Assembly: GCA_965644295.1 (NCBI GenBank)
Contig: CBFFRP010000478.1
Location: 1 to 19,131 of the forward strand
From: Paraphysomonas bandaiensis
Lineage: Eukaryota; Protista; Chrysophyceae
Direction: 5' to 3'
Length of the DNA: 19,131 nt
Below the pieces are notes generated by a model, which worked only from the letters and a program-made list of their open reading frames with translations, did not search any database and was not told the origin of the DNA. Made by a program: the position numbers and the translations under genes. Below, piece after piece: positions 151-19,131 of this stretch. Every line of letters begins with the position of its first letter. Position 1 is the first letter of the stretch.

Positions 151-268
151 TATGGGGGGGCGGTTGTGACTTAGTCGAGCAATAGCCGATTGAGGTCACG
201 GTATTTAATATTTATTTATAGGTTCATATTTTATGGACGATAAGGAGATCAGGCGTTGGACTGAACAT

Positions 269-277
269 AGGAGGGTG
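269..277 (+). other. Polypurine tract immediately 5' of the LTR
   Basis: AGGAGGGTG directly precedes TGTTG at 278, the usual PPT/3'-LTR arrangement of LTR retrotransposons. Confidence 0.6.
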
Positions 278-659
278 TGTTGTCATCCCCGTATAGGAGG
301 TTGGCTGTCATTGGAGTGAAAGCTTGGTTTGATAGTATACTGCTGTATATTGCACTATACTGTGGATGTATAGTATACAGGATATATACAGTGTAGACAG
401 CCAGCTACAGTAGGGTAACGGTATACCATTATACGGTGTATGATGACAATACGGTGTAGGATATGTGCAGTCCAATATGTACAGTGGATTGGTATAGAGT
501 AAGGGCATATATATGTGCCCAAGCAGTGAGCTGTAGGTGTAGTCTGTGATCGAAGATAGATTAGAATGCTAGTCATTATTATCACAGATAACCTCTGATA
601 AAACAAGTTAATAACACTATCATTACTATCAACTTGTGGCTTGTTATTGCCTTACAACA
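278..659 (+). mobile_element. LTR of an LTR retrotransposon (probably Ty1/copia-like 3' LTR), 382 bp
   Basis: Begins TGTTGT and ends ACAACA (6-bp terminal inverted repeat, TG...CA), preceded by a purine tract. A second copy at 4114-4495 has exactly the same boundaries. Confidence 0.8.
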
Positions 660-768
660 CTGTGTCATAGGCTAAAACCCAAATGATACGCAGGCAATTG
701 TCTATAGACAGAATAAAAGAATGCTCTGTGTCATAGGCTTAAACCCAAATGATACGCAGGCAATTGTC
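660..768 (-). repeat. Inverted copy of the ~65-bp tandem repeat (about 1.7 units)
   Basis: 660-741 is the exact reverse complement of 1-82. The repeat continues to about 768 (AAACCCAAATGATACGCAGGCAATTGTC). Confidence 0.92.
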
Positions 769-849
769 CGAAGACAAGATGATATCGATCATAATTGTTG
801 ATTTATAATCTGAAAACAATATATTAGTCATCGTATATCAAAATACAAA

Positions 850-3800
850 CCAGATCATCCTTCCCTGTTTTCTCTTTTATCCTCCGCAGGACCTTCTTAT
901 GATTTCCACTAAAAAAAAACTCCTCCATAATAATCAACAACGCATTTTATCTGCAAATATTAGAGTAGGTTCCAACTGCACACAAGTAGGCCTAGCCCGC
1001 AAGCAATTTTCGAAACCAAATATCTCTCAGTATTGGACTTTAACTCACACAAATGATCACCATGTAGTCGACCTTCTGAACTGCCATATATAACCAGCTC
1101 TGATCCTTGTTCGTGCCTAAGGACCAAGTTCTCCTTCATAATATCACCAACACATACTGAAATAAACTATCGACTAATGCATTGAACTCTTTCAACATTA
1201 TATCCTTCGCAGTAATGATGGATTTGTTTGAAAATAACACTCTCGAAAGAGTATACAGTAGTATCACACTCCTCCTAACAATGTCAACATTATAAACTCA
1301 CATGGAGAATGCAGATGCAATTATTTGTCATTCATTCAACTGCTGCCGATAACCATCATCGAAATTGAAACTTGCTGTCAGGAAAATCTCCAATAAATTT
1401 ATGATCAAATAATGTCGTCGCTACAATAACACTCTTGATAATATGATACTGTGTTGAACACATATTCTTCGTAACATCACACACAACCATCACGAATGCG
1501 TAACTTTAAGAACCATTGGAATGTAAATAACAACGGGTCATTCGAGGAAAAAAGAAAACACACACACTGTACCACTGCACGAATTAAATAATGTTGCATG
1601 GTCATTGAATTCACAAGCTGTCGAACACTGAACCGGCATTGTCGAATACCAATCACTCCTTTCCTTTATAATTGTAGCACAATATTTGAACATAACTCAT
1701 AACGAACAACTGAACATCCGAATTACTTTGTCTCAAAGATTCTCACACAATCTATTAAGATCATCAACTAAATCCATACAAATTGCAGAACAAAATATAT
1801 GTACTTTACTTCACCATGTAACATATACCCTATTATATGTTTGAGACACTTTTCAACTTATTCCGAATTAACTCTTCTTTTGCATTCATTGAAACAGTGA
1901 AGAACGACGAAGAACTATAACTGATCACACTGACAAAACTTTCACCCTGATCATTCAGTCTCTCCCAAAAAAAAACTTTGATACGCTGACACCTCATTCG
2001 CAACATAATAACTCTTTCTTTCAAAAGAAATCGTAACTTCACACAGTCGAATAATAACAGTACAAATCCCAGAAACCAACCAAACGAAATAAACGCACTG
2101 CTGCTTTGTATACCTACTAGGTCCTTGAATAAAAATAACCGTAATTTTAACTCTCGGGTTTCCCTCGTGTTGCTGTCACTCGGCGGGTGTATATACCTTT
2201 GAATAGGTTGTCGATCTCTAAATAAACTCTTGTATAGCCACATACACGACACAACCAAATCAGACCCCTGTAACATATATGATGCTCTCCTGTAGCACAC
2301 CCTCCTGATCATGTGTACTGTTTCCATTGCCTATACACCCTCCTGAACTCTTGACCAAACATATCTATTTATGGTTAGAGTACCATGATGCCGCACACAA
2401 CTCAACAGTTCCCACAGAAGTCCTTGAACTGATTTATAACTCTGTGGTCCATTTCTCATCAATCGTAGGAACCATCTCCTGAATCTTTCATTCATTTAAC
2501 ATAATCTTCAACTCCTAACTTCACCACCCGCACATCTCCACGCACATAGAACTTTCCACTTCCTTTCGACCCGGTATATATAAACAAGTGTAGCTCCATT
2601 TTTGTACCACAAGTTGAGCCTATACCCAAATTCAAACTCTGCATGCGGTACAAACACAAAATTTTAACTGCTACTGTGATGCAATACCACTGACACCACC
2701 GGCCGCTACCCAATAATACGGAGTATATTCTCCACTAAAAGCTTTTATGAAACTGATGCGCAAGAACAACCGGTACTCCTTTATCCACTGTTGGCATCGA
2801 CCATACCGCAAGCTTTTAAAACTATGCTTCAGGAGCTGCCGGCTCTACAACAATTCTCGCAACGAGACTAAGTACCTTAACCTCATGACCATCTATTTAT
2901 AGAAACGCACGAGTTGACACAACTGCAGCCAATATAGATCTTCCGACTCCTCGTGTTCTCTTACCAACGACGCCCATTTATATCTTCTTGACACGTCCAC
3001 ACACATATATTATATATATATATTCCAATCCAATCATATGTCCAACTATCACAATATGAATCCCGGAAACAACTGTTCGATGCATCAGATTAGGTTGCCC
3101 TTAGCTAGTAGCAAACATGCGAAACATCTGATGTAAATACACCTCCTCTATCACTGACGGATTAACAGTAGCTCCTGGCAACAAGCACCATTTTCTAAAT
3201 TTCCAACACCTGATACATATCTCGAGTCATCTACTGAACCCTCCTGAACATTATATTCACACTCAACTAAGGCTCTGATATCAACATAATCCAACTGATG
3301 TATATGCCTTACGTAATAATATATACGGCTGTCGTACAACCAAATTTCCATGCCGATCCCACACTCAAATATACTCTCAACCTCAACACAGCAGCAACTT
3401 CTGTTTGCTCCGGAATCCACAAGGGCCATCATGCATGCATCCTCCCATTGATTCTGACCCTTATTCACCCCAACAAACCGCTGCATACACTCTGTCGATA
3501 CTCCACTGGATCTAACTCATATTCTTCACTAGTTATAACATCGCCCTCTTGATCGTACGCTATGTTTGACGATCACAGACAACAACCGGACATTCGCAAA
3601 AATCATAATACGTAAGATCCTGTTTCGAAGATCACCACTTTCCACGCATTCCAATCTCTGTCATTGACTTCTCAACGCCCAATGAAGGTGAGGCTAATGT
3701 TCCCGGAAAAGCCAGAGCAGGAGGAATATTGATGCCACCTTGGTACATTATAAACCAATCAACCCAGAAGAAACCATAAAAGTCAATCCAATCCCCAACA

Positions 3801-4050
3801 AAGAATTACTTGCACTAGTTACACTCCTATTACGCCGTTGAACCACTCGAATAGTCATTATTTTGTAGACAAGGGCCTCCTTATTCGATAAACACTCCAA
3901 GAGGCCACCACAGAGCAAACGGCTGATGATCTGTGTTCTCCAAAATACCCGTGAAATTAGCCTTTTTCAATTCCTCTTCCACAGTCTCCTCAAACTCAAA
4001 AAACAGCACTCCTTCACTCCATATACATACAATCTCTCTCTGCTCTTCCG
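850..4050 (-). pseudogene. Decayed coding sequence of unknown identity, possibly an old transposon gene
   Basis: Strong strand skew (A/C-rich on +). Minus-strand frames read as protein-like stretches broken by in-frame TGA/TAG, e.g. YEGELGP*ARTRIRAGYIWQFRRSTTW*SFV*VKVQY*EIFGFENCLRARP near 1140-990. No family recognised. Confidence 0.3.
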
Positions 4051-4113
4051 GTCATCGTAACTACACTGCTGGAGCGACATGCTTCAGATAACATACTCTC
4101 GAGAACAAGTTAA

Positions 4114-4495
4114 TGTTGTAAGGCAATAACAAGCCACAAGTTGATAGTAATGATAGTGTTATTAACTTGTTTTATCAGAGGTTATCTGTGATAATAATGA
4201 CTAGCATTCTAATCTATCTTCTATCACAGACTACACCTACAGCTCACTGCTTGGGCACATATATATGCCCTTACTCTATACCAATCCACTGTACATATTG
4301 GACTGTACATATCCTACACCGTATTGTCATCATACACCGTATAATGGTATACCGTTACCCTACTGTAGCTGGCTGTCTACACTGTATATATCCTGTATAC
4401 TATACATCCACAGTATAGTGCAATATACAGCAGTATACTATCAAACCAAGCTTTCACTCCAATGACAGCCAACCTCCTATACGGGGATGACAACA
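4114..4495 (-). mobile_element. Second copy of the 382-bp LTR, opposite orientation (solo-like)
   Basis: Reverse complement of 278-659 (coordinates sum to 4773 at both ends). Two substitutions noticed (R/L and A/V in the mirrored 83-aa ORFs). No PBS, PPT or TSD seen (flanks GTTAA / ATATA). Confidence 0.8.
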
Positions 4496-4496
4496 A

Positions 4497-4746
4497 TATA
4501 TATATTGAAAGTCTTTTTATTTAGCAATAGGCGTTAAAAACCTGTGCCAATATAGTGGCTAGTTGAATGCTAGACATACTAGTTAGACCTCTACCCATAA
4601 CTAATCAGCACAAATTCCATTATCCTACTATTTAACGCTACAGAAGCTGCTTGTGCGTCGCCGCAAGCACCAAGGTGCGACCATTTCCGTTCTTGATGTT
4701 GATTGCGAGTTTCGCCATTGTCGTGTGTCCTAGGACTCACCGGCGC
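4497..4746 (-). mobile_element. Short 5'-truncated non-LTR retrotransposon (LINE) 3' end, 250 bp
   Basis: Aligns to 8347-8610 with scattered substitutions and small indels. On the minus strand it ends AATAAAAAGACTTTCAATATATATA (polyadenylation-like signal plus TA tail). Confidence 0.75.
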
Positions 4747-5797
4747 TATATGATAGATGTGTATGTAGGGGACACGTTGTGCAACGTACAGCATGACAAG
4801 TGAAAGCAGTGATCTAAGTCCACTACTACAACACTGGAACGCTTAAGACTACACATACATTGTGTGCAATTTGCATCGGGGACTGCCTTATGTACCTCAC
4901 GGCAACCAGGGGAACACAGTACTATACCCTGCTTATATTGGCGATCTGGTGGCCTTCCTTTAGACATTGTGCCAAGTGGCTCGGAGGTATGTGGATGAAG
5001 GTCTTGCAAAAGGATATGGCCTACTGTGAAGAAGCGTCGAAATCGACTCTTTTGCTGTCTTAGCCAGCGGTAGAGAGCACATGCAAGAGAGTGTATAGCT
5101 GGACAGGGGTGGGATATGAGGGTCATCCGGTGTGTCCAGCAGTCAATAACTAGGCCCTGGTGTGGAGCTCCCTTAATTACTAATAAAGTTACATAACAGA
5201 CTACGAATCGTAACTACTTCTTGCTCTCCACTGGCACATTAGTTAAAAGTTAAAATGCTATTAGTTTATAGAATTAAGAAGTTTGCCGCTGATAATGGAC
5301 AAAGTTGCCACAAAGTAGCTGTAGAGTTTTAAGAACATTGTTTAGATTTCACTTAGTTCTATATATAGATATAACAATCACCAGTACATGTCATTAATGA
5401 AAAATGTCTCGGCAATTATAATGGCGTTACTATTAGTGGCCATCAATGCCATTACCATTAACGGTTACCAGCCCTGGTATATTGTATAATATCTAGAATT
5501 ACGACAGTACCCAATGGCGAGATATATAACCTGGAGATAAGAAACCACCAAATGAACATAATATATGAAATACGGTCGATACGAGGGTGTCCAAAGTACA
5601 CAAGTGTATGCATGATCACTAAAACTGGCCACGCAAATAGAACATCGTATGCACTAAAACGATACTCAGTTCGCAATATTTTAGTATTTACTGACTTCAC
5701 TCGAATGTTTACATCTTCGCCAGTACAAAGCCAATGCAACAGCTAGCTATCTACATAGCATTATTATATCAAAAGAGCATAACTGCCCGCTGTGGCT

Positions 5798-6363
5798 TTA
5801 AAACCTCTGTTTCGGTTCATCAGGGGCGAGTCGTTCAGTGAAAGCATACATTGCTCCAAACTTCAAGGGTTCACACAAGAGACTTCCAATCAAAACTGCA
5901 GACATCTTGTGGAGAAAAGGCGGTGCATTAGATGTTAACTCGTCTGCCGCATACCCAGGTTCCGGGGGAATATACTGTATAATATACTTTTAAATATACA
6001 AATATATAATGGCACAGTAACTTACGCTGCCGTATATGCTCGGCAATATCTGCAAATAGAAGTCATTTATGTTCATTGGTAGGAAGGCAGTCTGTGTACC
6101 TCTTTTAAGACAAAGCTGTAATCAAACCCGAACGTTCCACATAAAGTATCAATTGAGCACCATAGCAAAATAACTGTCGCAATATCTGCTGTTTCGTGCA
6201 CAGCAATAGCAGTATTTTCATACTTAACCCACCATTCTGAAAATGACTTCGGATTTTCCGCTGTATAATACATGGTTCCTGAATACTGTCGTGCTAACTG
6301 CGCTGACTGACTGCAGAATATGCGATTCGCTCCCATCAGACGACGGGTCAGTTGTCTGAGCAT
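5798..6363 (-). CDS. Three-exon gene, 154 aa, FAM210/DUF1279-like putative mitochondrial membrane protein
   Basis: Exons 6363-6100, 6049-6026 and 5974-5798 join in frame across GT-AG introns of 50 and 51 nt. The N-terminus MLRQLTRRLMGANRIFCSQSAQLARQYS is Arg-rich and acid-free, like a transit peptide. KYENTAIAVH...FGFD and LLCEPLKFGAMYAFTERLA resemble the two conserved DUF1279 blocks. The exon structure is more secure than the family call. Confidence 0.6.
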
Positions 6364-6874
6364 TGCGGTATAACACACTTCTTGTTATAGTACCTCGCAA
6401 AATAACAGCTACTTTTCGGAGGATTTAATACAAAACAATCAATTCAATTCACCGCTCTGTACAGCATAGACCATACATATATATATATGATGTGTGATAC
6501 TTGTATATGCATTTTCTTTGGCTGCTTCATATACCCCATGTGGCATGGCATGGTAAACGGTATATGCATATGCATGGATTGTGGGCTATAATTTCTGTAT
6601 TCTCTGTACTCTAGTATTTCTGTGATTCAGGGTAGCGTATTTACTATGATATGGAAATAGCGATATCGATATCTATCCGCCCTGGTTGGAGTTCGGTTTT
6701 TCAGTGGGTCAATTCATGAATTTACTCGTTTTTTGAACAGAATGATTGGATTATATGACAACCATTCGAACAATCTCCAAAGCGGAATATACATACATAT
6801 ATATACACAACATCATTGTGCAATGCTACAGACCCCTTAAATACTACATACAATCTGCACCAGCACAAAGGAAA
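6364..6874. promoter_or_regulatory. Intergenic region between divergent genes (probable bidirectional promoter region)
   Basis: 511 bp between the minus-strand ATG at 6363 and the plus-strand ATG at 6875, with TA-rich tracts. Inferred from position only. Confidence 0.35.
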
Positions 6875-8103
6875 ATGGGACTTGCATCGAATATCGGAAC
6901 GTGTGTATTTTATAGTATTGCAGTGGTTGTTGCATTGGTGGCTATTGGGTTAGGAAAATATGTGTTTGTATTGGAGAGATGGTCTGCATATGAATCCCTA
7001 GATAGGGAAAACTTCAATGCCGCGAATTGGAAAATTCATCAAGAAAGTGAGATTCCAACCACATATTACTCCGCAGGGAAGCTCGGTGAAGTTTTGCCGA
7101 AGGTATGTCGCAAGGTGCAATGCAAGCATAATGTAATTTAACTGTGTACGATCAGTGGCACCACAATGCATTCCACTTGTACAGACTGAAGGAAGGAGAG
7201 TCTTTTAATTTTGATACTTCCACTATCAAGTCTTCTGTGGTTGGAAAAAAGCTTGACTATAGTTGTATGAGTGACCCTGATGTGAGTGACTGCTTTCGGC
7301 GTAGCTCTCTCATTACAAATTGTGTTTTTGATTACAACAACACTGAGACCGATGAAACGATGATTCAGGCGGAAACGATTCTGAGCGGAGAGGGACGGGG
7401 ATACCGTGCGGCTTTTGCAAATTTAACGAATAGAGAGGTAATCAAGACGGTGTGGGATACTCTTAACGTACCTTTTACTCTGTCCTCGACACGCTTTGAG
7501 CATTCATTTATATCTAATCTGGAGTACCCCGCGATTACCGCACCATTTCATGCCAATGGTCTTACAGACAGTATGGCATATCAGCTGGTAGGATTGAAAA
7601 CTTGGGTGTTTCTCCCGCCTCCTACCTACGTGGAACTGATGAAAGGTACTGCTGCCTCCAGTGCTCTTTTTGTCAAAAATGCTCCCCCCGCTGACTCTAA
7701 GCCTGATGTCTGGTTGATTACCACCCGCCCTGGGGATGTACTTTTTTTCCCCAATTGCTGGGGACATAGTGTATACACCTACGCTGGACCGAACCTTCTC
7801 ATGAACTTCCGCAAGATTTACCCTGGCAACTTTATCAATCAGCCGGTGATATGGATATCTACCATCCTCGAATACTTTCTCACCCAGTCTCATAGAGTGG
7901 AGGCTAATACTAATCAAGATGTTGATGATGAGGAAGTCAAGAAACTCTCTCGGTTTGTTCCCACCAAGAAAGAAAACATCAGAGTCAATGAGATGTATCA
8001 AAAGCTCTGTACATCTGAAGGAAGATCTCCTTTTGATGAGCAAATTCTATCTATTCTTGACGAGGAAGTGAAGAGAGTTGAGACACTTGGGATCAAGGGT
8101 TAA
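6875..8103 (+). CDS. JmjC/cupin-like domain protein with N-terminal signal anchor, two exons, about 391 aa
   Basis: Exon 1 6875-7102, a 53-nt intron GTATGT...ATCAG (7103-7155) and exon 2 7156-8103 join in frame. Hydrophobic segment VFYSIAVVVALVAIGLG. JmjC-like motifs APFHANG, QLVGLKTWVFLPP and RPGDVLFFPNCWGHSVYT. Confidence 0.85.
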
Positions 8104-8346
8104 AGAGATAGTTATGCATGGTGTGGGTACTGCAAGTTTTGGATATATATGCAGTGGAAAATATAGTGTACTGCGTTCTTGCTGATCACTTGCTCAATAG
8201 CGAACTTGCTGGCATGCGCACTACTGGAATGGTAAATAAGACATTTTAATCATAACATTTGTATTTCCGATTTGATAACTACCAAGCTGTGCTGTTAAGA
8301 TGTACCCTACTTTATTACAAGTGCAATGGGTGAAACCAGGGTCTGG

Positions 8347-9690
8347 TATATATATTGAAAGTCTTTTTATTTAGCAATAGGCGTTAAAAACTCGTTCCGA
8401 TATACGATATAGTGGCTAGTTGAATGCTGAATGCTAGACCTACTAGTTAGACCTCTACCCATAACTAATCAGCACAAATTCTATTATCCTACTATTTAGC
8501 GCTACAGAAGCTGCTTGTGCGTCGCCACAAGCACCAAGGTGCAACCACTTCCGTTCTTAATGTTGTTTGTGAGTTTCGCCCTGCTCGTGTGTCTTAGGAC
8601 TCACTGGCGCGTGTTGTCCGGGGGCCTCCCCTTGGGATAAGGTTCCGCCAGGCTCTGAGGTACAGGGTTCTGCATTAAGGTCCTGAGTGTACCGAGCACT
8701 AGATGTGTGTGCTGAGAAGGTTGATGGTGTGGTGGAATGTGTCGTTGTCGCCGTGCACCGTCTGGGCATCAGGCATAGGTGGAGTTGCCGGAGACGGCGT
8801 CGCTGCTGTCTAGGGCCTGCTGGTTTCGTGCGGTCCGGTGCTATGGTCCTATGCGTATGATTGGTGGGGTTCATATGTGCGGTGGACGGTGTTCCAGTCT
8901 CGGTTCGTCTGTGGATTCCTAGTAGTCTTAGCACCCTTGGGCGTTTCCATTTCTGTCTATGTTTTGGACGCAGTCGCGGTAGTAGCCTAGGGGGTCCTTT
9001 CTGTAGGGTAACGTATCGTCTACGTCGATCTTGGATCATTAGCTTTGCTGCAGCGAAAAGCGGTAGAAGCAATCTGATGACCGCTGATTCGATGCTGCGC
9101 AGTCCTTGGGGTGTCAGTGACTCATGGATGTGATCTCCAAAAACCGTCTCGAGTTGTGCAGTTGTGATGATACCCGTCCAGAATCTCTCCACCTGTGGAA
9201 CGGAGGGATTCCAGGCCCTGCTGGAGAGCCGCTGTAGTACAGTGGTGGTCCATTGGGGTAGTACCGGATTTCTCAGTTCTTCTTGAAGCGCGTTTTTGTG
9301 GCTGTAAAATGAAGACTCCCTCATCTGCTTTATGGCGTCAATTGTACAGTCTAGACACATATGCTTGAGTGTGTCTAGTCGAAATCCACAGTCAGAACAT
9401 GCGGCTTTAGCCAGGTCGAGTCCGTGTTTGGTTTTCGCCCGGTTTCTTCCTATGCTGAAAGATTTGTCCCATGTCAGTGCTTCATTGAGTACTCGCTGGC
9501 GCAGGTGGGAACTAACTTTGTCCTTTGATGGTCCACCGTCTGCTTGTGCCAGTTTGCGCGGAAGTAGTGCTCCACTGTCCGTCCAATATCCAGGTGCCCG
9601 GTCGGGATTGTGACCGTAGCGTTGGTCTCTGAGGGTAGTGCATGTGATGTTTCTGAGAACTAGAAACACGTGAATGACAGAAAGCTCTCT
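8347..9690 (-). mobile_element. 5'-truncated non-LTR retrotransposon (LINE), about 1.3 kb
   Basis: GC-richer block carrying the C-terminal part of an ORF with a CCHC finger, then a 3' UTR and TA tail shared with 4497-4746. The 5' boundary is approximate and no TSD was found. Confidence 0.75.
8557..9669 (-). pseudogene. C-terminal fragment of LINE ORF2 (post-RT region with CCHC zinc finger)
   Basis: 370-codon open frame with no ATG start. CSDCGFRLDTLKHMCLDC is C-x2-C-x8-H-x4-C, like the finger downstream of RT in L1/Tx1-type elements, followed by a basic tail. No RT motifs remain. Confidence 0.7.
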
Positions 9691-9825
9691 CTAAAAACGT
9701 TTTAACAGATTAAAGTGTACGCCAGCGGGCTGCTACACTGTTAAGCCTACCAGCGGGTAGAACTCCTCCACACAAACGCAAACCGCGAATGAGCTTAATT
9801 GAATCGTTATTAAAACGTTATATAG
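9691..9825. repeat. Small element with imperfect terminal inverted repeats (MITE-like)
   Basis: AACGTTTTAA (9696-9705) and TTAAAACGTT (9810-9819) form a perfect 10-bp IR inside a looser ~25-bp IR. CCAGCGGG occurs twice internally. Confidence 0.3.
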
Positions 9826-10043
9826 AAGAAGAATGAGTAACACAGCTATACATCTCTACAGTGTAACACACACATCATGTTCAGCATTTCACTTCAACAC
9901 ACAACACACCCGATTAGAAGTATTTTATCCGGTATGTATGTACAGCTTCAACACTCTGAGAGTAGAAACTGAAAATAAAACTGAACACTGAAAATACTAA
10001 AACCCGAAGAAGTATGAAAATTAAAACCTCAATTTTTTGGAGT

Positions 10044-10158
10044 TGTGTAAATTATTTTTCATACTTCGGATAGTTTCGATTCAGCTCCCTCGCAGGATCT
10101 CATAGCAAACGAGTGTAATTTTTCGAAATTAGTAGAAGTATGAAAAATAATTTACACA
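10044..10158. repeat. Perfect 24-bp inverted repeat with 67-bp spacer (repeated in each unit at +1644)
   Basis: TGTGTAAATTATTTTTCATACTTC (10044-10067) and GAAGTATGAAAAATAATTTACACA (10135-10158). Confidence 0.95.
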
Positions 10159-10320
10159 GCCTTAAACTCTAAAAAACCCTTATTTTAAGTATAAAAGTGC
10201 ACTTTTTAAGCATAGAAATCCATCATATTACTGGAACTGTTGAAGTGATAGAACAAGAACACTCATAGTATACTGACTGGACATTCAATGTACATCAACT
10301 AACTGTAATTGTGTTATATA

Positions 10321-11520
10321 ATGGAACGAGCTAGACTGAGTCTTGTTGTTCAAGGGCAGGCTGAAAGAAACGTTGTCACAAAGACGAAAAAACAGTATCT
10401 TTCGAAGTGTAAAGTACTCACCAACATACTAAACAAAGACGAGGATATACGAAAAGAAGCACTGGTGACTAATGAGGATGGTGAAGCTATCAAGCACACT
10501 GGAGAAGCTAAAGACATTTACGTAATGAAGCTTCCTATTGACGTAGCTGTGGCAAAGCTTCTCTTTGCGGCCATCTCTATTGATGAAGACCTTCCCAAAC
10601 GAGGGAATAAAAGGAAACGACGTGACGAAATTATCACGGAAGGTGAAGTTGAGGCAACCAGCAGTGATCACGTTGAAGTCGACAGTCAATACGATATGAA
10701 TCCGGGAAAAGATAAAGTTACCGTAAGTGCACAGGCTTATCAAAATTACAAGAGTGCACTTCGGTGGTGGCACCAATATGACTGTCCAAGTATGGGAAAA
10801 GTCGGCTACCCATGGCCTGGGGATGTGGATATGGCTTTGTGTGCTTCCATTGCAACCTATAAAAGGGATGTAGGAAGTAAAAAGCGCAATGGCATAATGA
10901 AGTCAAGAGAAGGGAAAAGTGCATTCAATTTACATGGCTATAAAGCTATATGTCGTTATTTCAAGAAAATGAAGCCCACCAAAAAAGGCCAATCATGGCA
11001 CGAGGGAATATTTGCTTCTTTATTTACTACAAAATCCGTTTCAACTATAGGTAGATCGGATAATGTTGATGATGTCATAACTACGAATATGGACTGGTCT
11101 AATGACGCTATGACTATAAAATTTGGAACCACCAAAACTGATCAAGCAGGGACTATGACAAGTGATATAAAGCGTATTTATGCAAACCCTTTTGCTCCAG
11201 AAATTTGTCCTCTATTAGATCTGGCAGTATATGTTTTCTGTATCCATCGAACCAGTGTCGAAGATGCTAAATATTTATTTGCTGGAAACGATCAAAATAA
11301 GAGATATTACAGTCTTCTCGTCGATGCAGTAAGAAATGGAATCGATAAATCATTGGATCTTGGTTGCGCAAGGGAAGATATAGGAACTCATAGCAATCGG
11401 AAGTTTGCCGAATCAACTTCAGTATCCAAACTTGATGGACCTAGTAGAACTCAAGTTTGCTTGAGGGCTGGTCAAGGAGTAGGCGGAACTCAGGACTGTT
11501 ATATGTTATATGATACATGA
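10321..11520 (+). CDS. Crypton (CryptonS-like) tyrosine recombinase, 399 aa, copy 1
   Basis: First ATG at 10321. Motifs IGRSDNV (R245), TKTDQAG (K272), IYANPFAPEICP, GTHSNRK (H357, R360) and GPSRTQVCLRAGQGVGGTQDCY (Y394). YQNYKSALRWWH resembles the N-terminal core-binding region. PKRGNKRKRR is NLS-like. Confidence 0.85.
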   Translation: MERARLSLVVQGQAERNVVTKTKKQYLSKCKVLTNILNKDEDIRKEALVTNEDGEAIKHTGEAKDIYVMKLPIDVAVAKLLFAAISIDEDLPKRGNKRKRRDEIITEGEVEATSSDHVEVDSQYDMNPGKDKVTVSAQAYQNYKSALRWWHQYDCPSMGKVGYPWPGDVDMALCASIATYKRDVGSKKRNGIMKSREGKSAFNLHGYKAICRYFKKMKPTKKGQSWHEGIFASLFTTKSVSTIGRSDNVDDVITTNMDWSNDAMTIKFGTTKTDQAGTMTSDIKRIYANPFAPEICPLLDLAVYVFCIHRTSVEDAKYLFAGNDQNKRYYSLLVDAVRNGIDKSLDLGCAREDIGTHSNRKFAESTSVSKLDGPSRTQVCLRAGQGVGGTQDCYMLYDT

Positions 11521-11617
11521 GTGCAGGCGTGGTTTACGATTGTCTATACAGCAGTATACCATGTATACTATCTATACTGTATACAACGTAATACGTACCT
11601 ATATACAATTTTCACAT

Positions 11618-11665
11618 ATTTTCATACTTTTGATCATTTAGAAAAACCCGAAGAAGTATGAAAAT
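11618..11665. other. Unit junction: 12-bp inverted repeats around a 24-bp spacer (putative joined element ends)
   Basis: ATTTTCATACTT (11618-11629), spacer TTGATCATTTAGAAAAACCCGAAG, AAGTATGAAAAT (11654-11665). The unit boundary 11642/11643 lies within 1 bp of the symmetry centre. Same structure at every junction. Confidence 0.75.
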
Positions 11666-11964
11666 TAAAACCTCAATTTTTTGGAGTTGTGTAAATTATT
11701 TTTCATACTTCGGATAGTTTCGATTCAGCTCCCTCGCAGGATCTCATAGCAAACGAGTGTAATTTTTCGAAATTAGTAGAAGTATGAAAAATAATTTACA
11801 CAGCCTTAAACTCTAAAAAACCCTTATTTTAAGTATAAAAGTGCACTTTTTAAGCATAGAAATCCATCATATTACTGGAACTGTTGAAGTGATAGAACAA
11901 GAACACTCATAGTATACTGACTGGACATTCAATGTACATCAACTAACTGTAATTGTGTTATATA

Positions 11965-13164
11965 ATGGAACGAGCTAGACTGAGTCTTGTTGTTCAAGGG
12001 CAGGCTGAAAGAAACGTTGTCACAAAGACGAAAAAACAGTATCTTTCGAAGTGTAAAGTACTCACCAACATACTAAACAAAGACGAGGATATACGAAAAG
12101 AAGCACTGGTGACTAATGAGGATGGTGAAGCTATCAAGCACACTGGAGAAGCTAAAGACATTTACGTAATGAAGCTTCCTATTGACGTAGCTGTGGCAAA
12201 GCTTCTCTTTGCGGCCATCTCTATTGATGAAGACCTTCCCAAACGAGGGAATAAAAGGAAACGACGTGACGAAATTATCACGGAAGGTGAAGTTGAGGCA
12301 ACCAGCAGTGATCACGTTGAAGTCGACAGTCAATACGATATGAATCCGGGAAAAGATAAAGTTACCGTAAGTGCACAGGCTTATCAAAATTACAAGAGTG
12401 CACTTCGGTGGTGGCACCAATATGACTGTCCAAGTATGGGAAAAGTCGGCTACCCATGGCCTGGGGATGTGGATATGGCTTTGTGTGCTTCCATTGCAAC
12501 CTATAAAAGGGATGTAGGAAGTAAAAAGCGCAATGGCATAATGAAGTCAAGAGAAGGGAAAAGTGCATTCAATTTACATGGCTATAAAGCTATATGTCGT
12601 TATTTCAAGAAAATGAAGCCCACCAAAAAAGGCCAATCATGGCACGAGGGAATATTTGCTTCTTTATTTACTACAAAATCCGTTTCAACTATAGGTAGAT
12701 CGGATAATGTTGATGATGTCATAACTACGAATATGGACTGGTCTAATGACGCTATGACTATAAAATTTGGAACCACCAAAACTGATCAAGCAGGGACTAT
12801 GACAAGTGATATAAAGCGTATTTATGCAAACCCTTTTGCTCCAGAAATTTGTCCTCTATTAGATCTGGCAGTATATGTTTTCTGTATCCATCGAACCAGT
12901 GTCGAAGATGCTAAATATTTATTTGCTGGAAACGATCAAAATAAGAGATATTACAGTCTTCTCGTCGATGCAGTAAGAAATGGAATCGATAAATCATTGG
13001 ATCTTGGTTGCGCAAGGGAAGATATAGGAACTCATAGCAATCGGAAGTTTGCCGAATCAACTTCAGTATCCAAACTTGATGGACCTAGTAGAACTCAAGT
13101 TTGCTTGAGGGCTGGTCAAGGAGTAGGCGGAACTCAGGACTGTTATATGTTATATGATACATGA
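11965..13164 (+). CDS. Crypton-like tyrosine recombinase, copy 2
   Basis: Translation identical to copy 1, offset 1644. Confidence 0.85.
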   Translation: MERARLSLVVQGQAERNVVTKTKKQYLSKCKVLTNILNKDEDIRKEALVTNEDGEAIKHTGEAKDIYVMKLPIDVAVAKLLFAAISIDEDLPKRGNKRKRRDEIITEGEVEATSSDHVEVDSQYDMNPGKDKVTVSAQAYQNYKSALRWWHQYDCPSMGKVGYPWPGDVDMALCASIATYKRDVGSKKRNGIMKSREGKSAFNLHGYKAICRYFKKMKPTKKGQSWHEGIFASLFTTKSVSTIGRSDNVDDVITTNMDWSNDAMTIKFGTTKTDQAGTMTSDIKRIYANPFAPEICPLLDLAVYVFCIHRTSVEDAKYLFAGNDQNKRYYSLLVDAVRNGIDKSLDLGCAREDIGTHSNRKFAESTSVSKLDGPSRTQVCLRAGQGVGGTQDCYMLYDT

Positions 13165-13608
13165 GTGCAGGCGTGGTTTACGATTGTCTATACAGCAGTA
13201 TACCATGTATACTATCTATACTGTATACAACGTAATACGTACCTATATACAATTTTCACATATTTTCATACTTTTGATCATTTAGAAAAACCCGAAGAAG
13301 TATGAAAATTAAAACCTCAATTTTTTGGAGTTGTGTAAATTATTTTTCATACTTCGGATAGTTTCGATTCAGCTCCCTCGCAGGATCTCATAGCAAACGA
13401 GTGTAATTTTTCGAAATTAGTAGAAGTATGAAAAATAATTTACACAGCCTTAAACTCTAAAAAACCCTTATTTTAAGTATAAAAGTGCACTTTTTAAGCA
13501 TAGAAATCCATCATATTACTGGAACTGTTGAAGTGATAGAACAAGAACACTCATAGTATACTGACTGGACATTCAATGTACATCAACTAACTGTAATTGT
13601 GTTATATA

Positions 13609-14808
13609 ATGGAACGAGCTAGACTGAGTCTTGTTGTTCAAGGGCAGGCTGAAAGAAACGTTGTCACAAAGACGAAAAAACAGTATCTTTCGAAGTGTAA
13701 AGTACTCACCAACATACTAAACAAAGACGAGGATATACGAAAAGAAGCACTGGTGACTAATGAGGATGGTGAAGCTATCAAGCACACTGGAGAAGCTAAA
13801 GACATTTACGTAATGAAGCTTCCTATTGACGTAGCTGTGGCAAAGCTTCTCTTTGCGGCCATCTCTATTGATGAAGACCTTCCCAAACGAGGGAATAAAA
13901 GGAAACGACGTGACGAAATTATCACGGAAGGTGAAGTTGAGGCAACCAGCAGTGATCACGTTGAAGTCGACAGTCAATACGATATGAATCCGGGAAAAGA
14001 TAAAGTTACCGTAAGTGCACAGGCTTATCAAAATTACAAGAGTGCACTTCGGTGGTGGCACCAATATGACTGTCCAAGTATGGGAAAAGTCGGCTACCCA
14101 TGGCCTGGGGATGTGGATATGGCTTTGTGTGCTTCCATTGCAACCTATAAAAGGGATGTAGGAAGTAAAAAGCGCAATGGCATAATGAAGTCAAGAGAAG
14201 GGAAAAGTGCATTCAATTTACATGGCTATAAAGCTATATGTCGTTATTTCAAGAAAATGAAGCCCACCAAAAAAGGCCAATCATGGCACGAGGGAATATT
14301 TGCTTCTTTATTTACTACAAAATCCGTTTCAACTATAGGTAGATCGGATAATGTTGATGATGTCATAACTACGAATATGGACTGGTCTAATGACGCTATG
14401 ACTATAAAATTTGGAACCACCAAAACTGATCAAGCAGGGACTATGACAAGTGATATAAAGCGTATTTATGCAAACCCTTTTGCTCCAGAAATTTGTCCTC
14501 TATTAGATCTGGCAGTATATGTTTTCTGTATCCATCGAACCAGTGTCGAAGATGCTAAATATTTATTTGCTGGAAACGATCAAAATAAGAGATATTACAG
14601 TCTTCTCGTCGATGCAGTAAGAAATGGAATCGATAAATCATTGGATCTTGGTTGCGCAAGGGAAGATATAGGAACTCATAGCAATCGGAAGTTTGCCGAA
14701 TCAACTTCAGTATCCAAACTTGATGGACCTAGTAGAACTCAAGTTTGCTTGAGGGCTGGTCAAGGAGTAGGCGGAACTCAGGACTGTTATATGTTATATG
14801 ATACATGA
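13609..14808 (+). CDS. Crypton-like tyrosine recombinase, copy 3
   Basis: Translation identical to copy 1. Confidence 0.85.
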   Translation: MERARLSLVVQGQAERNVVTKTKKQYLSKCKVLTNILNKDEDIRKEALVTNEDGEAIKHTGEAKDIYVMKLPIDVAVAKLLFAAISIDEDLPKRGNKRKRRDEIITEGEVEATSSDHVEVDSQYDMNPGKDKVTVSAQAYQNYKSALRWWHQYDCPSMGKVGYPWPGDVDMALCASIATYKRDVGSKKRNGIMKSREGKSAFNLHGYKAICRYFKKMKPTKKGQSWHEGIFASLFTTKSVSTIGRSDNVDDVITTNMDWSNDAMTIKFGTTKTDQAGTMTSDIKRIYANPFAPEICPLLDLAVYVFCIHRTSVEDAKYLFAGNDQNKRYYSLLVDAVRNGIDKSLDLGCAREDIGTHSNRKFAESTSVSKLDGPSRTQVCLRAGQGVGGTQDCYMLYDT

Positions 14809-15252
14809 GTGCAGGCGTGGTTTACGATTGTCTATACAGCAGTATACCATGTATACTATCTATACTGTATACAACGTAATACGTACCTATATACAATTTT
14901 CACATATTTTCATACTTTTGATCATTTAGAAAAACCCGAAGAAGTATGAAAATTAAAACCTCAATTTTTTGGAGTTGTGTAAATTATTTTTCATACTTCG
15001 GATAGTTTCGATTCAGCTCCCTCGCAGGATCTCATAGCAAACGAGTGTAATTTTTCGAAATTAGTAGAAGTATGAAAAATAATTTACACAGCCTTAAACT
15101 CTAAAAAACCCTTATTTTAAGTATAAAAGTGCACTTTTTAAGCATAGAAATCCATCATATTACTGGAACTGTTGAAGTGATAGAACAAGAACACTCATAG
15201 TATACTGACTGGACATTCAATGTACATCAACTAACTGTAATTGTGTTATATA

Positions 15253-16452
15253 ATGGAACGAGCTAGACTGAGTCTTGTTGTTCAAGGGCAGGCTGAAAGA
15301 AACGTTGTCACAAAGACGAAAAAACAGTATCTTTCGAAGTGTAAAGTACTCACCAACATACTAAACAAAGACGAGGATATACGAAAAGAAGCACTGGTGA
15401 CTAATGAGGATGGTGAAGCTATCAAGCACACTGGAGAAGCTAAAGACATTTACGTAATGAAGCTTCCTATTGACGTAGCTGTGGCAAAGCTTCTCTTTGC
15501 GGCCATCTCTATTGATGAAGACCTTCCCAAACGAGGGAATAAAAGGAAACGACGTGACGAAATTATCACGGAAGGTGAAGTTGAGGCAACCAGCAGTGAT
15601 CACGTTGAAGTCGACAGTCAATACGATATGAATCCGGGAAAAGATAAAGTTACCGTAAGTGCACAGGCTTATCAAAATTACAAGAGTGCACTTCGGTGGT
15701 GGCACCAATATGACTGTCCAAGTATGGGAAAAGTCGGCTACCCATGGCCTGGGGATGTGGATATGGCTTTGTGTGCTTCCATTGCAACCTATAAAAGGGA
15801 TGTAGGAAGTAAAAAGCGCAATGGCATAATGAAGTCAAGAGAAGGGAAAAGTGCATTCAATTTACATGGCTATAAAGCTATATGTCGTTATTTCAAGAAA
15901 ATGAAGCCCACCAAAAAAGGCCAATCATGGCACGAGGGAATATTTGCTTCTTTATTTACTACAAAATCCGTTTCAACTATAGGTAGATCGGATAATGTTG
16001 ATGATGTCATAACTACGAATATGGACTGGTCTAATGACGCTATGACTATAAAATTTGGAACCACCAAAACTGATCAAGCAGGGACTATGACAAGTGATAT
16101 AAAGCGTATTTATGCAAACCCTTTTGCTCCAGAAATTTGTCCTCTATTAGATCTGGCAGTATATGTTTTCTGTATCCATCGAACCAGTGTCGAAGATGCT
16201 AAATATTTATTTGCTGGAAACGATCAAAATAAGAGATATTACAGTCTTCTCGTCGATGCAGTAAGAAATGGAATCGATAAATCATTGGATCTTGGTTGCG
16301 CAAGGGAAGATATAGGAACTCATAGCAATCGGAAGTTTGCCGAATCAACTTCAGTATCCAAACTTGATGGACCTAGTAGAACTCAAGTTTGCTTGAGGGC
16401 TGGTCAAGGAGTAGGCGGAACTCAGGACTGTTATATGTTATATGATACATGA
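15253..16452 (+). CDS. Crypton-like tyrosine recombinase, copy 4
   Basis: Translation identical to copy 1. Confidence 0.85.
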   Translation: MERARLSLVVQGQAERNVVTKTKKQYLSKCKVLTNILNKDEDIRKEALVTNEDGEAIKHTGEAKDIYVMKLPIDVAVAKLLFAAISIDEDLPKRGNKRKRRDEIITEGEVEATSSDHVEVDSQYDMNPGKDKVTVSAQAYQNYKSALRWWHQYDCPSMGKVGYPWPGDVDMALCASIATYKRDVGSKKRNGIMKSREGKSAFNLHGYKAICRYFKKMKPTKKGQSWHEGIFASLFTTKSVSTIGRSDNVDDVITTNMDWSNDAMTIKFGTTKTDQAGTMTSDIKRIYANPFAPEICPLLDLAVYVFCIHRTSVEDAKYLFAGNDQNKRYYSLLVDAVRNGIDKSLDLGCAREDIGTHSNRKFAESTSVSKLDGPSRTQVCLRAGQGVGGTQDCYMLYDT

Positions 16453-16896
16453 GTGCAGGCGTGGTTTACGATTGTCTATACAGCAGTATACCATGTATAC
16501 TATCTATACTGTATACAACGTAATACGTACCTATATACAATTTTCACATATTTTCATACTTTTGATCATTTAGAAAAACCCGAAGAAGTATGAAAATTAA
16601 AACCTCAATTTTTTGGAGTTGTGTAAATTATTTTTCATACTTCGGATAGTTTCGATTCAGCTCCCTCGCAGGATCTCATAGCAAACGAGTGTAATTTTTC
16701 GAAATTAGTAGAAGTATGAAAAATAATTTACACAGCCTTAAACTCTAAAAAACCCTTATTTTAAGTATAAAAGTGCACTTTTTAAGCATAGAAATCCATC
16801 ATATTACTGGAACTGTTGAAGTGATAGAACAAGAACACTCATAGTATACTGACTGGACATTCAATGTACATCAACTAACTGTAATTGTGTTATATA

Positions 16897-18096
16897 ATGG
16901 AACGAGCTAGACTGAGTCTTGTTGTTCAAGGGCAGGCTGAAAGAAACGTTGTCACAAAGACGAAAAAACAGTATCTTTCGAAGTGTAAAGTACTCACCAA
17001 CATACTAAACAAAGACGAGGATATACGAAAAGAAGCACTGGTGACTAATGAGGATGGTGAAGCTATCAAGCACACTGGAGAAGCTAAAGACATTTACGTA
17101 ATGAAGCTTCCTATTGACGTAGCTGTGGCAAAGCTTCTCTTTGCGGCCATCTCTATTGATGAAGACCTTCCCAAACGAGGGAATAAAAGGAAACGACGTG
17201 ACGAAATTATCACGGAAGGTGAAGTTGAGGCAACCAGCAGTGATCACGTTGAAGTCGACAGTCAATACGATATGAATCCGGGAAAAGATAAAGTTACCGT
17301 AAGTGCACAGGCTTATCAAAATTACAAGAGTGCACTTCGGTGGTGGCACCAATATGACTGTCCAAGTATGGGAAAAGTCGGCTACCCATGGCCTGGGGAT
17401 GTGGATATGGCTTTGTGTGCTTCCATTGCAACCTATAAAAGGGATGTAGGAAGTAAAAAGCGCAATGGCATAATGAAGTCAAGAGAAGGGAAAAGTGCAT
17501 TCAATTTACATGGCTATAAAGCTATATGTCGTTATTTCAAGAAAATGAAGCCCACCAAAAAAGGCCAATCATGGCACGAGGGAATATTTGCTTCTTTATT
17601 TACTACAAAATCCGTTTCAACTATAGGTAGATCGGATAATGTTGATGATGTCATAACTACGAATATGGACTGGTCTAATGACGCTATGACTATAAAATTT
17701 GGAACCACCAAAACTGATCAAGCAGGGACTATGACAAGTGATATAAAGCGTATTTATGCAAACCCTTTTGCTCCAGAAATTTGTCCTCTATTAGATCTGG
17801 CAGTATATGTTTTCTGTATCCATCGAACCAGTGTCGAAGATGCTAAATATTTATTTGCTGGAAACGATCAAAATAAGAGATATTACAGTCTTCTCGTCGA
17901 TGCAGTAAGAAATGGAATCGATAAATCATTGGATCTTGGTTGCGCAAGGGAAGATATAGGAACTCATAGCAATCGGAAGTTTGCCGAATCAACTTCAGTA
18001 TCCAAACTTGATGGACCTAGTAGAACTCAAGTTTGCTTGAGGGCTGGTCAAGGAGTAGGCGGAACTCAGGACTGTTATATGTTATATGATACATGA
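16897..18096 (+). CDS. Crypton-like tyrosine recombinase, copy 5
   Basis: Translation identical to copy 1. Confidence 0.85.
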   Translation: MERARLSLVVQGQAERNVVTKTKKQYLSKCKVLTNILNKDEDIRKEALVTNEDGEAIKHTGEAKDIYVMKLPIDVAVAKLLFAAISIDEDLPKRGNKRKRRDEIITEGEVEATSSDHVEVDSQYDMNPGKDKVTVSAQAYQNYKSALRWWHQYDCPSMGKVGYPWPGDVDMALCASIATYKRDVGSKKRNGIMKSREGKSAFNLHGYKAICRYFKKMKPTKKGQSWHEGIFASLFTTKSVSTIGRSDNVDDVITTNMDWSNDAMTIKFGTTKTDQAGTMTSDIKRIYANPFAPEICPLLDLAVYVFCIHRTSVEDAKYLFAGNDQNKRYYSLLVDAVRNGIDKSLDLGCAREDIGTHSNRKFAESTSVSKLDGPSRTQVCLRAGQGVGGTQDCYMLYDT

Positions 18097-18540
18097 GTGC
18101 AGGCGTGGTTTACGATTGTCTATACAGCAGTATACCATGTATACTATCTATACTGTATACAACGTAATACGTACCTATATACAATTTTCACATATTTTCA
18201 TACTTTTGATCATTTAGAAAAACCCGAAGAAGTATGAAAATTAAAACCTCAATTTTTTGGAGTTGTGTAAATTATTTTTCATACTTCGGATAGTTTCGAT
18301 TCAGCTCCCTCGCAGGATCTCATAGCAAACGAGTGTAATTTTTCGAAATTAGTAGAAGTATGAAAAATAATTTACACAGCCTTAAACTCTAAAAAACCCT
18401 TATTTTAAGTATAAAAGTGCACTTTTTAAGCATAGAAATCCATCATATTACTGGAACTGTTGAAGTGATAGAACAAGAACACTCATAGTATACTGACTGG
18501 ACATTCAATGTACATCAACTAACTGTAATTGTGTTATATA

Positions 18541-19131
18541 ATGGAACGAGCTAGACTGAGTCTTGTTGTTCAAGGGCAGGCTGAAAGAAACGTTGTCACA
18601 AAGACGAAAAAACAGTATCTTTCGAAGTGTAAAGTACTCACCAACATACTAAACAAAGACGAGGATATACGAAAAGAAGCACTGGTGACTAATGAGGATG
18701 GTGAAGCTATCAAGCACACTGGAGAAGCTAAAGACATTTACGTAATGAAGCTTCCTATTGACGTAGCTGTGGCAAAGCTTCTCTTTGCGGCCATCTCTAT
18801 TGATGAAGACCTTCCCAAACGAGGGAATAAAAGGAAACGACGTGACGAAATTATCACGGAAGGTGAAGTTGAGGCAACCAGCAGTGATCACGTTGAAGTC
18901 GACAGTCAATACGATATGAATCCGGGAAAAGATAAAGTTACCGTAAGTGCACAGGCTTATCAAAATTACAAGAGTGCACTTCGGTGGTGGCACCAATATG
19001 ACTGTCCAAGTATGGGAAAAGTCGGCTACCCATGGCCTGGGGATGTGGATATGGCTTTGTGTGCTTCCATTGCAACCTATAAAAGGGATGTAGGAAGTAA
19101 AAAGCGCAATGGCATAATGAAGTCAAGAGAA
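18541..19131 (+). CDS. Crypton-like tyrosine recombinase, copy 6 (cut by the window end)
   Basis: ATG at 18541. Same sequence as copy 1 up to MKSRE at the window edge. Confidence 0.82.
   Translation, partial: MERARLSLVVQGQAERNVVTKTKKQYLSKCKVLTNILNKDEDIRKEALVTNEDGEAIKHTGEAKDIYVMKLPIDVAVAKLLFAAISIDEDLPKRGNKRKRRDEIITEGEVEATSSDHVEVDSQYDMNPGKDKVTVSAQAYQNYKSALRWWHQYDCPSMGKVGYPWPGDVDMALCASIATYKRDVGSKKRNGIMKSRE

What the first reader, a model, noticed from the sequence alone, without database searches (positions are those of the whole stretch)
11618..11665. Unit junction is a symmetric att-like site with the breakpoint at its centre
Seen: the right end of one unit (ATTTTCATACTT) and the left end of the next (AAGTATGAAAAT) form an inverted pair 24 bp apart, with the symmetry centre at 11641/11642. 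Identity with the first unit's chromosomal flank begins at 11643 (equivalent to 9999). The central hexamer is TAGAAA at junctions versus TACTAA at the chromosome/element border (9995-10000). Known: tyrosine recombinases exchange strands across a 6-8-bp overlap between inverted binding sites. Inferred: the array was made by site-specific joining of true element ends rather than random unequal crossover, and the junction predicts both the binding motif and a TAnnAA-like crossover core that tolerates mismatch.
Basis: partly seen in the sequence, partly recalled or inferred. Interest (0 to 1): 0.78.

Follow-up and report, generated by a model that had tools for sequence, protein, structure and literature searches.

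The report
Crypton transposon end-to-end junction site
This is the exact joint where one copy of a small "Crypton" jumping gene meets the next in a head-to-tail chain; its mirror-image sequence, kept in many related elements, likely marks where the element's own cut-and-rejoin enzyme binds and cuts, which gives a concrete site for testing how these little-understood transposons move.

Summary
In detail: perfect 12-bp inverted boxes 24 bp apart, axis at 11641/11642, at all five joints of a 1644-bp array of identical units. The unit is an internally deleted Crypton-type tyrosine-recombinase transposon; a 767-aa full-length relative (99% identical) exists.

Related elements share the joint: TTT-AnnA-AAAC at the centre plus distal boxes that co-vary between the two arms. 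Each half-site is therefore bipartite (AAA[C/T]-N5-box), and it recurs three times at the left end.

Two corrections. The exchange point is not at the axis: empty-site, left-end and right-end contigs show a 5-bp AAAAC direct repeat (11643-11647) just right of it. TAnnAA belongs to the element's right end and is not a target consensus (1 of 8 host flanks match).

Best model: a symmetric site in which only the right-edge strand exchange is inherited. A precise joint between two 70%-identical subfamilies supports site-specific accretion, but identical joints cannot exclude later unequal crossover. The array's far end was not seen. A new variant of a known kind.

The parts
11618..11629 (-). Distal box of right-end half-site R1 (left arm of the joint)
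   Evidence: co-varies with its partner across relatives
11636..11639 (-). Inner motif of R1 (ATTT here, mostly GTTT in relatives)
11640..11643 (.). Central 4 bp AGAA (A-nn-A); symmetry axis 11641/11642; with one T and one A on either side it is the predicted 6-bp overlap 11639-11644
   Evidence: overlap role inferred
11643..11647 (+). 5-bp direct repeat AAAAC shared by left end, right end and empty target; the exchange point lies here
11654..11665 (+). Distal box of left-end half-site L1 (right arm of the joint)
9995..10022 (+). Host/element border (attL-like): host ACT, AAAAC at 9999-10003, half-site L1 of unit 1
10054..10076 (-). Accessory half-site L2 (same bipartite motif)
10126..10148 (+). 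Accessory half-site L3; with L2 it forms the 36-bp 89% inverted pair
   Evidence: below the PWM threshold
10321..11520 (+). Truncated tyrosine-recombinase ORF, 399 aa from the ATG (R245, K272, H357, R360, Q385 in the His/Trp slot, Y394 at 11500-11502); it leaves the family alignment after M395 and has Gly where the full-length relative has Arg389
9999..11642 (+). Unit 1 (1644 bp)
11643..18218 (+). Units 2-5, identical; further joints with axes at 13285/6, 14929/30, 16573/4, 18217/8
18219..19131 (+). Unit 6, cut by the window end; the array's right border is not in the window
9719..10003 (.). Host target: a multi-copy repeat whose other copies run on without the element
   Evidence: runs X3 and X6

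Best explanation
The site is the right-end/left-end joint of a Crypton-type transposon in a head-to-tail array, and it likely serves as the element's attP-like recombination site, bound by the full-length tyrosine recombinase at two bipartite half-sites either side of a predicted 6-bp overlap. Shown: ends, axis, co-varying half-sites, AAAAC direct repeat, empty site, recombinase fold, truncation of the array's own ORF. Inferred steps: (1) Each half-site is AAA[C/T]-N5-box. One enzyme monomer would contact the inner motif and, one helical turn out, the box; the extra left-end copies L2 and L3 would help build the synapse. (2) The host target needs little more than AAAA[C/T], usually after an A-rich stretch. 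(3) Only the exchange at the right edge of the overlap (bottom strand, within AAAAC, where donor and target match) would be inherited, for example by one strand exchange resolved by replication. The left border then keeps the host's centre (CT here), the right border and every joint keep the element's (GA), and the empty site is restored exactly. (4) An integrated end is itself a target, so circles or sister-chromatid ends would add head to tail; homologous unequal exchange may then have expanded the identical units. (5) The array's deleted units are likely non-autonomous and moved in trans. Odds: att-like recombinase site about 0.9; symmetric binding with one-sided inheritance about 0.55.
For: Ends: in 4 of 4 runs laid (4 studies), host-flanked contigs begin at 11641-11643; two host-flanked right-end contigs (X6, X10; 3 differences each) stop at 11647. 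Empty site: in 2 of 4 runs (X3, X6; 2 studies) a flank contig matches to 10003 and continues with the same 25 other letters. Conserved architecture: 14 of 34 close loci carry the canonical joint. In 13 aligned joints complementarity peaks at this axis (0.69 versus at most 0.39 for 16 shifted axes), and own arms pair at 10.5 of 13 positions versus 7.9 for swapped arms, 0 of 100000 permutations; 9 of 13 distal pairs show two-sided changes, covariation 0 of 500 shuffles. The inner AAAC is kept in accessory copies that are not joints, which points to a binding motif and not just overlap homology. Polarity: first base of the central four is A in 9 of 9 right borders versus 3 of 8 host-side left borders, p=0.009. 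Joint and right border share the same centre within a family (L017; L046 with L030), while the left border differs (L006 versus L007; L004). L008 has a precise joint between a right end 99.8% identical to L025 and an element only 70% identical to it. Full-length model: Flp Z 15.4 (rmsd 3.8, 264 aligned) and Ndc10 Z 15.0 (rmsd 3.9, 231 aligned), aligned ranges reaching residues 467-498. P0090 is 767 aa and 99% identical over the shared part. Chlamydomonas Cryptons use a short terminal/target motif, excise cleanly and still gain copies (PMC9977147, passages).
Against: No binding or cleavage data. The array's far right end was not seen. The positions of the 3 differences in the two right-border contigs were not given, so a changed nn there is not excluded. 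One X6 right end leaves at 11643 without AAAAC. L005 has the centre CCTA at a joint and at its right end and was outside the selection pattern; L021 has AATT in place of AAAC. The joints are related (three rows from one subfamily group, two from another), so the permutation and Fisher values overstate independence, and the Fisher test was post hoc (p=0.044 without the two read-derived flanks). The empty site is a paralogous repeat copy, not the orthologous locus. A 24-bp half-site is longer than the 11-13-bp arms quoted for typical recombinases (PMC3212892). The clade has Gln in the His/Trp catalytic slot (26 of 62 rows), so its activity is inferred from recent insertions only.
Confidence: 0.6

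Rival explanations
1. Classical Goodwin model: both strands are exchanged across the homologous 5-bp AAAAC itself (an off-centre overlap); the inverted boxes are accessory binding sites and the axis is not the cleavage centre.
For: All products are equally explained by a crossover inside AAAAC. Published Cryptons have 4-6-bp direct repeats treated as recombination substrates (PMC3212892 passages and Additional file 1; PMC9977147).
Against: AAAC has an inverted partner at the mirror position (TTT/AAA in 13 of 13 rows, partly by selection; G/C in 10 of 13) and is kept in non-joint copies at fixed spacing to the box. It would lie inside the overlap, where it is not expected to be a binding motif (general knowledge of Cre/Flp sites, recalled).
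Confidence: 0.27
2. Tn916/CTnDOT-like: symmetric cuts and both strands exchanged across a mismatched TAnnAA overlap, the heteroduplex being resolved afterwards (closest to the first reader's reading).
For: nn varies between families while its flanks do not. IntDOT needs identity only next to the first cleavage (PMC2817482 abstract). L005's CCTA centre could be host-derived.
Against: Random resolution would put host centres at right borders and joints. Seen instead: 5 of 5 window joints are GA; joint and right border match in L017 and in L046/L030; right borders 9 of 9 AnnA versus left borders 3 of 8 with a first A; in X18 a 0-difference right-end contig at depth 1155 runs through GA although the window-type joint has depth 423. 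It survives only if repair is biased.
Confidence: 0.1
3. The array or joint is an assembly artefact, or a chance or replication-slippage duplication unrelated to the recombinase.
For: Units are 100% identical and the array runs off the window; the copy number could be inflated; no genome was held for checking.
Against: Joint-crossing contig pieces in 4 of 4 runs at several times the depth of host-flanked pieces (depth is only a rough guide); the same truncated protein on 1651- and 1753-bp contigs elsewhere; the same joint architecture in 14 of 34 related loci.
Confidence: 0.03

Closest known systems
CryptonS elements of oomycetes and a diatom (Kojima and Jurka 2011, PMC3212892; passages and Additional file 1 read)
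   Same: Single tyrosine-recombinase ORF with a long C-terminal region and no Pfam GCR1_C hit (0 of 62); 5-bp terminal direct repeat; internally deleted derivatives of similar size exist (N families of 465-1656 bp); nearest Atlas clusters include oomycete and diatom ones.
   Different: The direct repeat is AAAAC, absent from the list of repeats in Additional file 1 (mostly TATGG). The paper describes Cryptons as lacking terminal inverted repeats, while here there are co-varying subterminal inverted half-sites. Gln sits in the His/Trp slot. Head-to-tail joints are common. Phylogenetic placement against Repbase CryptonS was not possible.
CryptonF-1_cRei of Chlamydomonas (PMC9977147; passages read)
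   Same: Short motif at one terminus matching the target; clean empty sites; copy-number gain.
   Different: Motif CACCG/CAYCG, CryptonF group; the passages read describe no binding sites or joints.
Starship Hephaestus circle junction (bioRxiv 10.64898/2026.09.21.753150; parts 1-2 of 4 read)
   Same: Eukaryotic tyrosine-recombinase element whose joined ends form an integration-competent site.
   Different: Giant cargo element with a DUF3435 captain; junction reads are rare (36 versus 6959 end reads), whereas here the joint is abundant and integrated in tandem.
CTnDOT IntDOT (PMC2817482, abstract) and Tn916/Tn1549 (PMC5871717, search listing only; details recalled)
   Same: Non-identical centres between donor and target, with identity only at one edge.
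   Different: Bacterial conjugative elements with arm-binding domains; both strands are exchanged and host-derived coupling sequences enter the circle, which the data here do not show.
Strand-biased circularizing elements, SE (PMC9345347; passages read)
   Same: Tyrosine-recombinase exchange inherited from one strand only, the model favoured here.
   Different: Bacterial, four core genes; the circle takes its 6 bp from attL and no empty site is left, whereas here the joint matches the right border.

Membership tests
[quoted passage not shown] | Tyrosine recombinase with R-H-R-Y tetrad | tested here: met
   R245 and K272 in 60 of 62 rows (2 gaps); H357, R360, Y394 in 62 of 62; Flp, Ndc10, Cre and Xer folds. 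Pfam gave no hit for the window ORF.
[quoted passage not shown] | Short (4-6 bp) direct repeat at both ends, one copy at the empty site | tested here: met
   AAAAC; both ends in L004. The window array's own right end was not seen.
[quoted passage not shown] | No reverse transcriptase or DDE transposase, no long terminal repeats | tested here: met
   The unit holds one sense ORF and one 115-aa antisense ORF of 80 aa or more; only 12-bp subterminal inverted boxes, no long terminal repeats.
[quoted passage not shown] | Mobility through the recombinase and a circular intermediate | not testable with these tools
   Contigs cannot tell circles from tandem arrays; polymorphic insertions are indirect.
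CryptonS | TATGG termini (majority of members) | tested here: not met
   AAAAC here; the paper lists other exceptions. TATGG was seen at the joint of one distant relative, L035.
CryptonS | 5-6-bp terminal direct repeat | tested here: met
CryptonS | No GCR1_C domain, conserved own C-terminal region | tested here: inconclusive
   Pfam 0 of 62, but the Atlas gives a weak lead (0.86) to a GCR1_C/NDC10_II cluster for residues 400-767; the C-terminal domain was not folded alone.
CryptonS | Phylogenetic placement in the CryptonS clade | not testable with these tools
CryptonF | GCR1_C DNA-binding domain | tested here: inconclusive
   No Pfam hit in 62 rows; top Atlas hit is an NDC10_II/GCR1_C cluster at 0.98.
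Simple loxP/FRT-type site | 11-13-bp inverted arms directly flanking a 6-8-bp spacer | tested here: not met
   The 12-bp boxes are 24 bp apart; only 3-4 inverted bases flank the central 4 bp.
Simple loxP/FRT-type site | Identical overlap in both partners | tested here: not met
   TAGAAA versus TACTAA; other host flanks differ more.
Tn916/CTnDOT coupling-sequence systems | Host-derived, variable overlap in joints and right borders | tested here: inconclusive
   Constant within families in the few comparisons possible, one odd case L005; read output incomplete.

The most novel reading that the evidence does not exclude
A widespread aquatic-eukaryote Crypton clade with Gln in the His/Trp catalytic slot uses long bipartite half-sites and a one-strand, replication-resolved exchange; its own ends serve as landing pads, so head-to-tail accretion, even between subfamilies, is its normal way of multiplying. 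The same geometry may explain the TATGG repeat of classical CryptonS (one locus, L035).
Probability: 0.35. Interest if true: 0.75.

Novelty: new variant of a known kind. Interest (0 to 1): 0.5.

Why it matters
How Cryptons recognise their ends, and why they gain copies although they excise cleanly, is open (PMC9977147 calls the mode complex). This joint supplies a defined donor site, a predicted binding motif supported by covariation, a short target (AAAA[C/T]), a natural full-length enzyme and a strand-specific prediction, so the question can be tested directly. A eukaryotic integrase needing only a 5-bp target is also of tool interest, as for Starships. Tandem Crypton arrays themselves are not rare: earlier notes of this scan report several. 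My four Crypton searches (listings, with passages read in four of the listed Crypton or Starship papers) showed no description of such arrays or binding sites, but Goodwin 2003 and Repbase reports were not seen.

Tried and rejected
No whole genome was held, so no genome-wide insertion table and no view of the array's far end. Pfam found nothing for the window ORF or P0090; the PDB sequence search gave only 3 chance hits. The viral collection gave 75 pattern matches and 0 relatives. The window's exact 11-bp box (up to 1 mismatch) gave only scattered hits in 7 of 51 related loci: the box diverges between families and only the architecture is kept. TAnnAA as target consensus: rejected (1 of 8). 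An intron rescuing the ORF was considered but not favoured: homology stops at M395 and only about 140 bp remain in the unit, against about 370 missing residues; no RNA was examined. I first read X6 pieces 26-27 (ending 11646-11647) as right borders; their depths sum to that of the joint piece (14.7 + 9.2 = 23.9), so they are variant paths into the joint and were dropped as evidence for the end. Symmetry scans of 20 other loci found no TTT-N4-AAA-type joint among the top two axes per locus; the L035 joint came from a targeted look. The fold searches did not test the C-terminal domain (650-763) properly. Look-ups of earlier findings by sequence and by place returned nothing. Genome contigs was not scanned, and no complex prediction was run. 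Supplements of the bioRxiv preprint could not be seen.

Full report
OBSERVATION. The described pair is present exactly: 11618-11629 and 11654-11665 are perfect reverse complements, 24 bp apart, with the axis at 11641/11642. Identity at lag 1644 begins at 9999/11643, and the hexamers are as stated. Five full units and a 913-bp sixth are identical to unit 1, and 0 of 5000 local shuffles give such an arm near that point. The same box occurs twice more in each left end (10056 minus strand, 10136 plus strand). All four copies read AAA[C/T]-N5-[G/A]AAGTATGAAAA outward from their inner end.

THE ELEMENT. The unit's ORF has 85 hits among 5463 candidates, one of them the window's own cluster representative, and 5036 hits at E up to 0.001 among 50%-identity representatives. 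It has no Pfam hit, but its model matches Cre. The full-length relative P0090 (767 aa, same 90% cluster, 99% identical over the shared part) folds at pLDDT 89 and matches Flp (Z 15.4, rmsd 3.8, 264 aligned) and Ndc10 (Z 15.0, rmsd 3.9, 231 aligned). The R-K-H-R-Y residues are conserved. The His/Trp slot is Gln in 26, Trp in 34 and His in 2 of 62 rows, and Gln in every row at 39% identity or more; in Cre and Flp that position matters for docking the tyrosine helix (PMC4381057 passages). The window protein stops following the family one residue after the catalytic Tyr and lacks about 370 residues, including parts aligned to Flp and Ndc10 (to residues 467-498). It is therefore probably inactive (inferred). 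The same 399-aa form is recorded on contigs of 1651 and 1753 bp, about one unit long. The Atlas neighbours are fungal NDC10_II/GCR1_C, oomycete and diatom clusters. This is a Crypton-type element, most like CryptonS as described in PMC3212892, in a eukaryote whose DNA also appears in marine runs.

WHERE THE ENDS ARE. Of 24 listed runs I laid five (X1, X3, X6, X18; X3, X6, X10, X18); all are contigs, and one may be the window's own source. In X3 and X6 a contig follows the flank to 10003 and then continues with the same 25 unrelated letters. This is an empty copy of the multi-copy host repeat, and it shares AAAAC (9999-10003, equal to 11643-11647) with the joint. On 11560-11690, host-flanked contigs begin at 11641-11643 in 4 of 4 runs, and two diverged host-flanked right ends stop at 11647. 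One X6 right end leaves at 11643 without AAAAC. Pieces crossing the joint occur in 4 of 4 runs (0, 2, 0 and 0 differences) at depths 405, 26, 423 and 24, against 36-42, 3-8, 91-118 and 3-4.5 for host-flanked pieces. The ends are thus real, and the exchange point lies in AAAAC, 2-6 bp right of the axis.

RELATIVES. The metagenome scan gave 51 loci; 34 (L001-L032, L040, L046) were examined for ends. Fourteen carry a canonical head-to-tail joint. I aligned the window and 12 of them, dropping L003 and L020 as duplicates; L005 and L021 have variant joints that missed the selection pattern. The centre is TTT-A-nn-A-AAA in 13 of 13 rows, with nn variable between families; TT and AAA were selected for, the inner As were not. 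Distal boxes 12-24 bp from the axis differ between families but stay complementary: 9 of 13 pairs show two-sided changes, 0 of 500 shuffles reach the covariation score, own arms pair at 10.5 of 13 positions versus 7.9 for swapped arms, and the axis fraction is 0.69 versus at most 0.39 when shifted. The rows are related, so these controls are optimistic. A weight matrix from the arms finds further half-sites at left ends, often as a plus, minus, plus triad, and 0 hits in window 1-9900.

POLARITY. Nine right borders (one at a contig end, one on the minus strand of L022) all have AnnA followed by AAA[C/T]. Six left borders from loci and the window, plus two single-contig flanks from reads, have a first A in 3 of 8 and the full TAnnAA in 1 of 8 (Fisher p=0.009, or 0.044 without the read flanks; post hoc). 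Within families, joint and right border share the centre (L017; L046 with L030) while the left border differs (L006 versus L007; L004). L005 (centre CCTA) is a counter-example to AnnA. So TAnnAA travels with the element's right end, and the host contributes its own bases at the left border.

MECHANISM. A symmetric site combined with one-sided products is most simply explained if the recombinase binds both half-sites around a roughly 6-bp overlap and only the exchange at the right edge, where donor and target match, is inherited. Precedents for the separate pieces are one-edge identity in IntDOT (abstract) and one-strand circularisation or replicative resolution in SE elements and integrons (PMC9345347 passages). 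It would also fit clean excision with copy gain in Chlamydomonas Cryptons. The classical alternative, an off-centre homologous overlap at AAAAC, predicts the same products and remains open (0.27). These steps are inferred, not shown.

ORIGIN OF THE ARRAY. The first joint must come from precise end joining. Because an integrated end contains AAAAC it is itself a target, and L008 shows a precise joint between a right end 99.8% identical to L025 and an element 70% identical to it, which homologous exchange would not make; a rare chimera is not excluded.

NOVELTY. Cryptons, their short direct repeats and the circle model are published, and Starship circles are now shown. Earlier notes of this scan report tandem Crypton arrays in other genomes (unchecked leads). 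New here are the AAAAC repeat (not in the list), the co-varying bipartite half-sites with accessory copies, the left/right polarity, the Gln clade and the high frequency of joints. Searches for Crypton with tandem, head-to-tail, circular intermediate and tandem array listed no paper whose title or abstract start describes these; Goodwin 2003 and Repbase reports were not seen. Verdict: real, a new variant of a known kind, interest 0.5.

Noticed in passing
L035, axis at 3156/3157 of a contig with 103-bp terminal redundancy: A distant Trp-type relative (33% identity) has a joint of the same geometry (GTAT-N4-AAAC plus distal inverted boxes), with the CryptonS repeat TATGG ending exactly at the axis. 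One locus only.
   Followed up: partly
L008:862 and L025: Precise joint between two subfamilies 70% identical in their 3' regions, suggesting accretion at element ends.
   Followed up: yes
window 11473-11475 and alignment A3: Gln replaces His/Trp of the catalytic pentad in the whole close clade (26 of 62 rows).
   Followed up: partly
window 278-659 and 4114-4495: 382-bp inverted repeats, 99% complementary, 3454 bp apart: probably another transposon with terminal inverted repeats.
   Followed up: no
window 1-151 and 660-777: Short repeated unit of about 60 bp present in inverted copies around the left long inverted repeat.
   Followed up: no
window 8557-9669 (minus) and 4553-4746 versus 8417-8610: High-depth, diverged repeat with a 370-aa open frame and no Pfam hit; it looks like a retrotransposon tail (recalled resemblance, untested); a border near 9643 separates it from the repeat that holds the array.
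   Followed up: no
window 7144-8103: Cupin_8/JmjC-like gene (Pfam E 9e-7), possibly joined by an intron to the ORF at 6746-7141.
   Followed up: no
window 10208-10861 and 11643-11690, runs X3, X6, X10, X18: Low-depth contigs with other internal deletions, and left ends that diverge after about 35-45 bp: further non-autonomous derivatives.
   Followed up: no
window 11642 to 11676, run X18: One contig joins these places on opposite strands (depth 94); not seen as a joint; unexplained.
   Followed up: no
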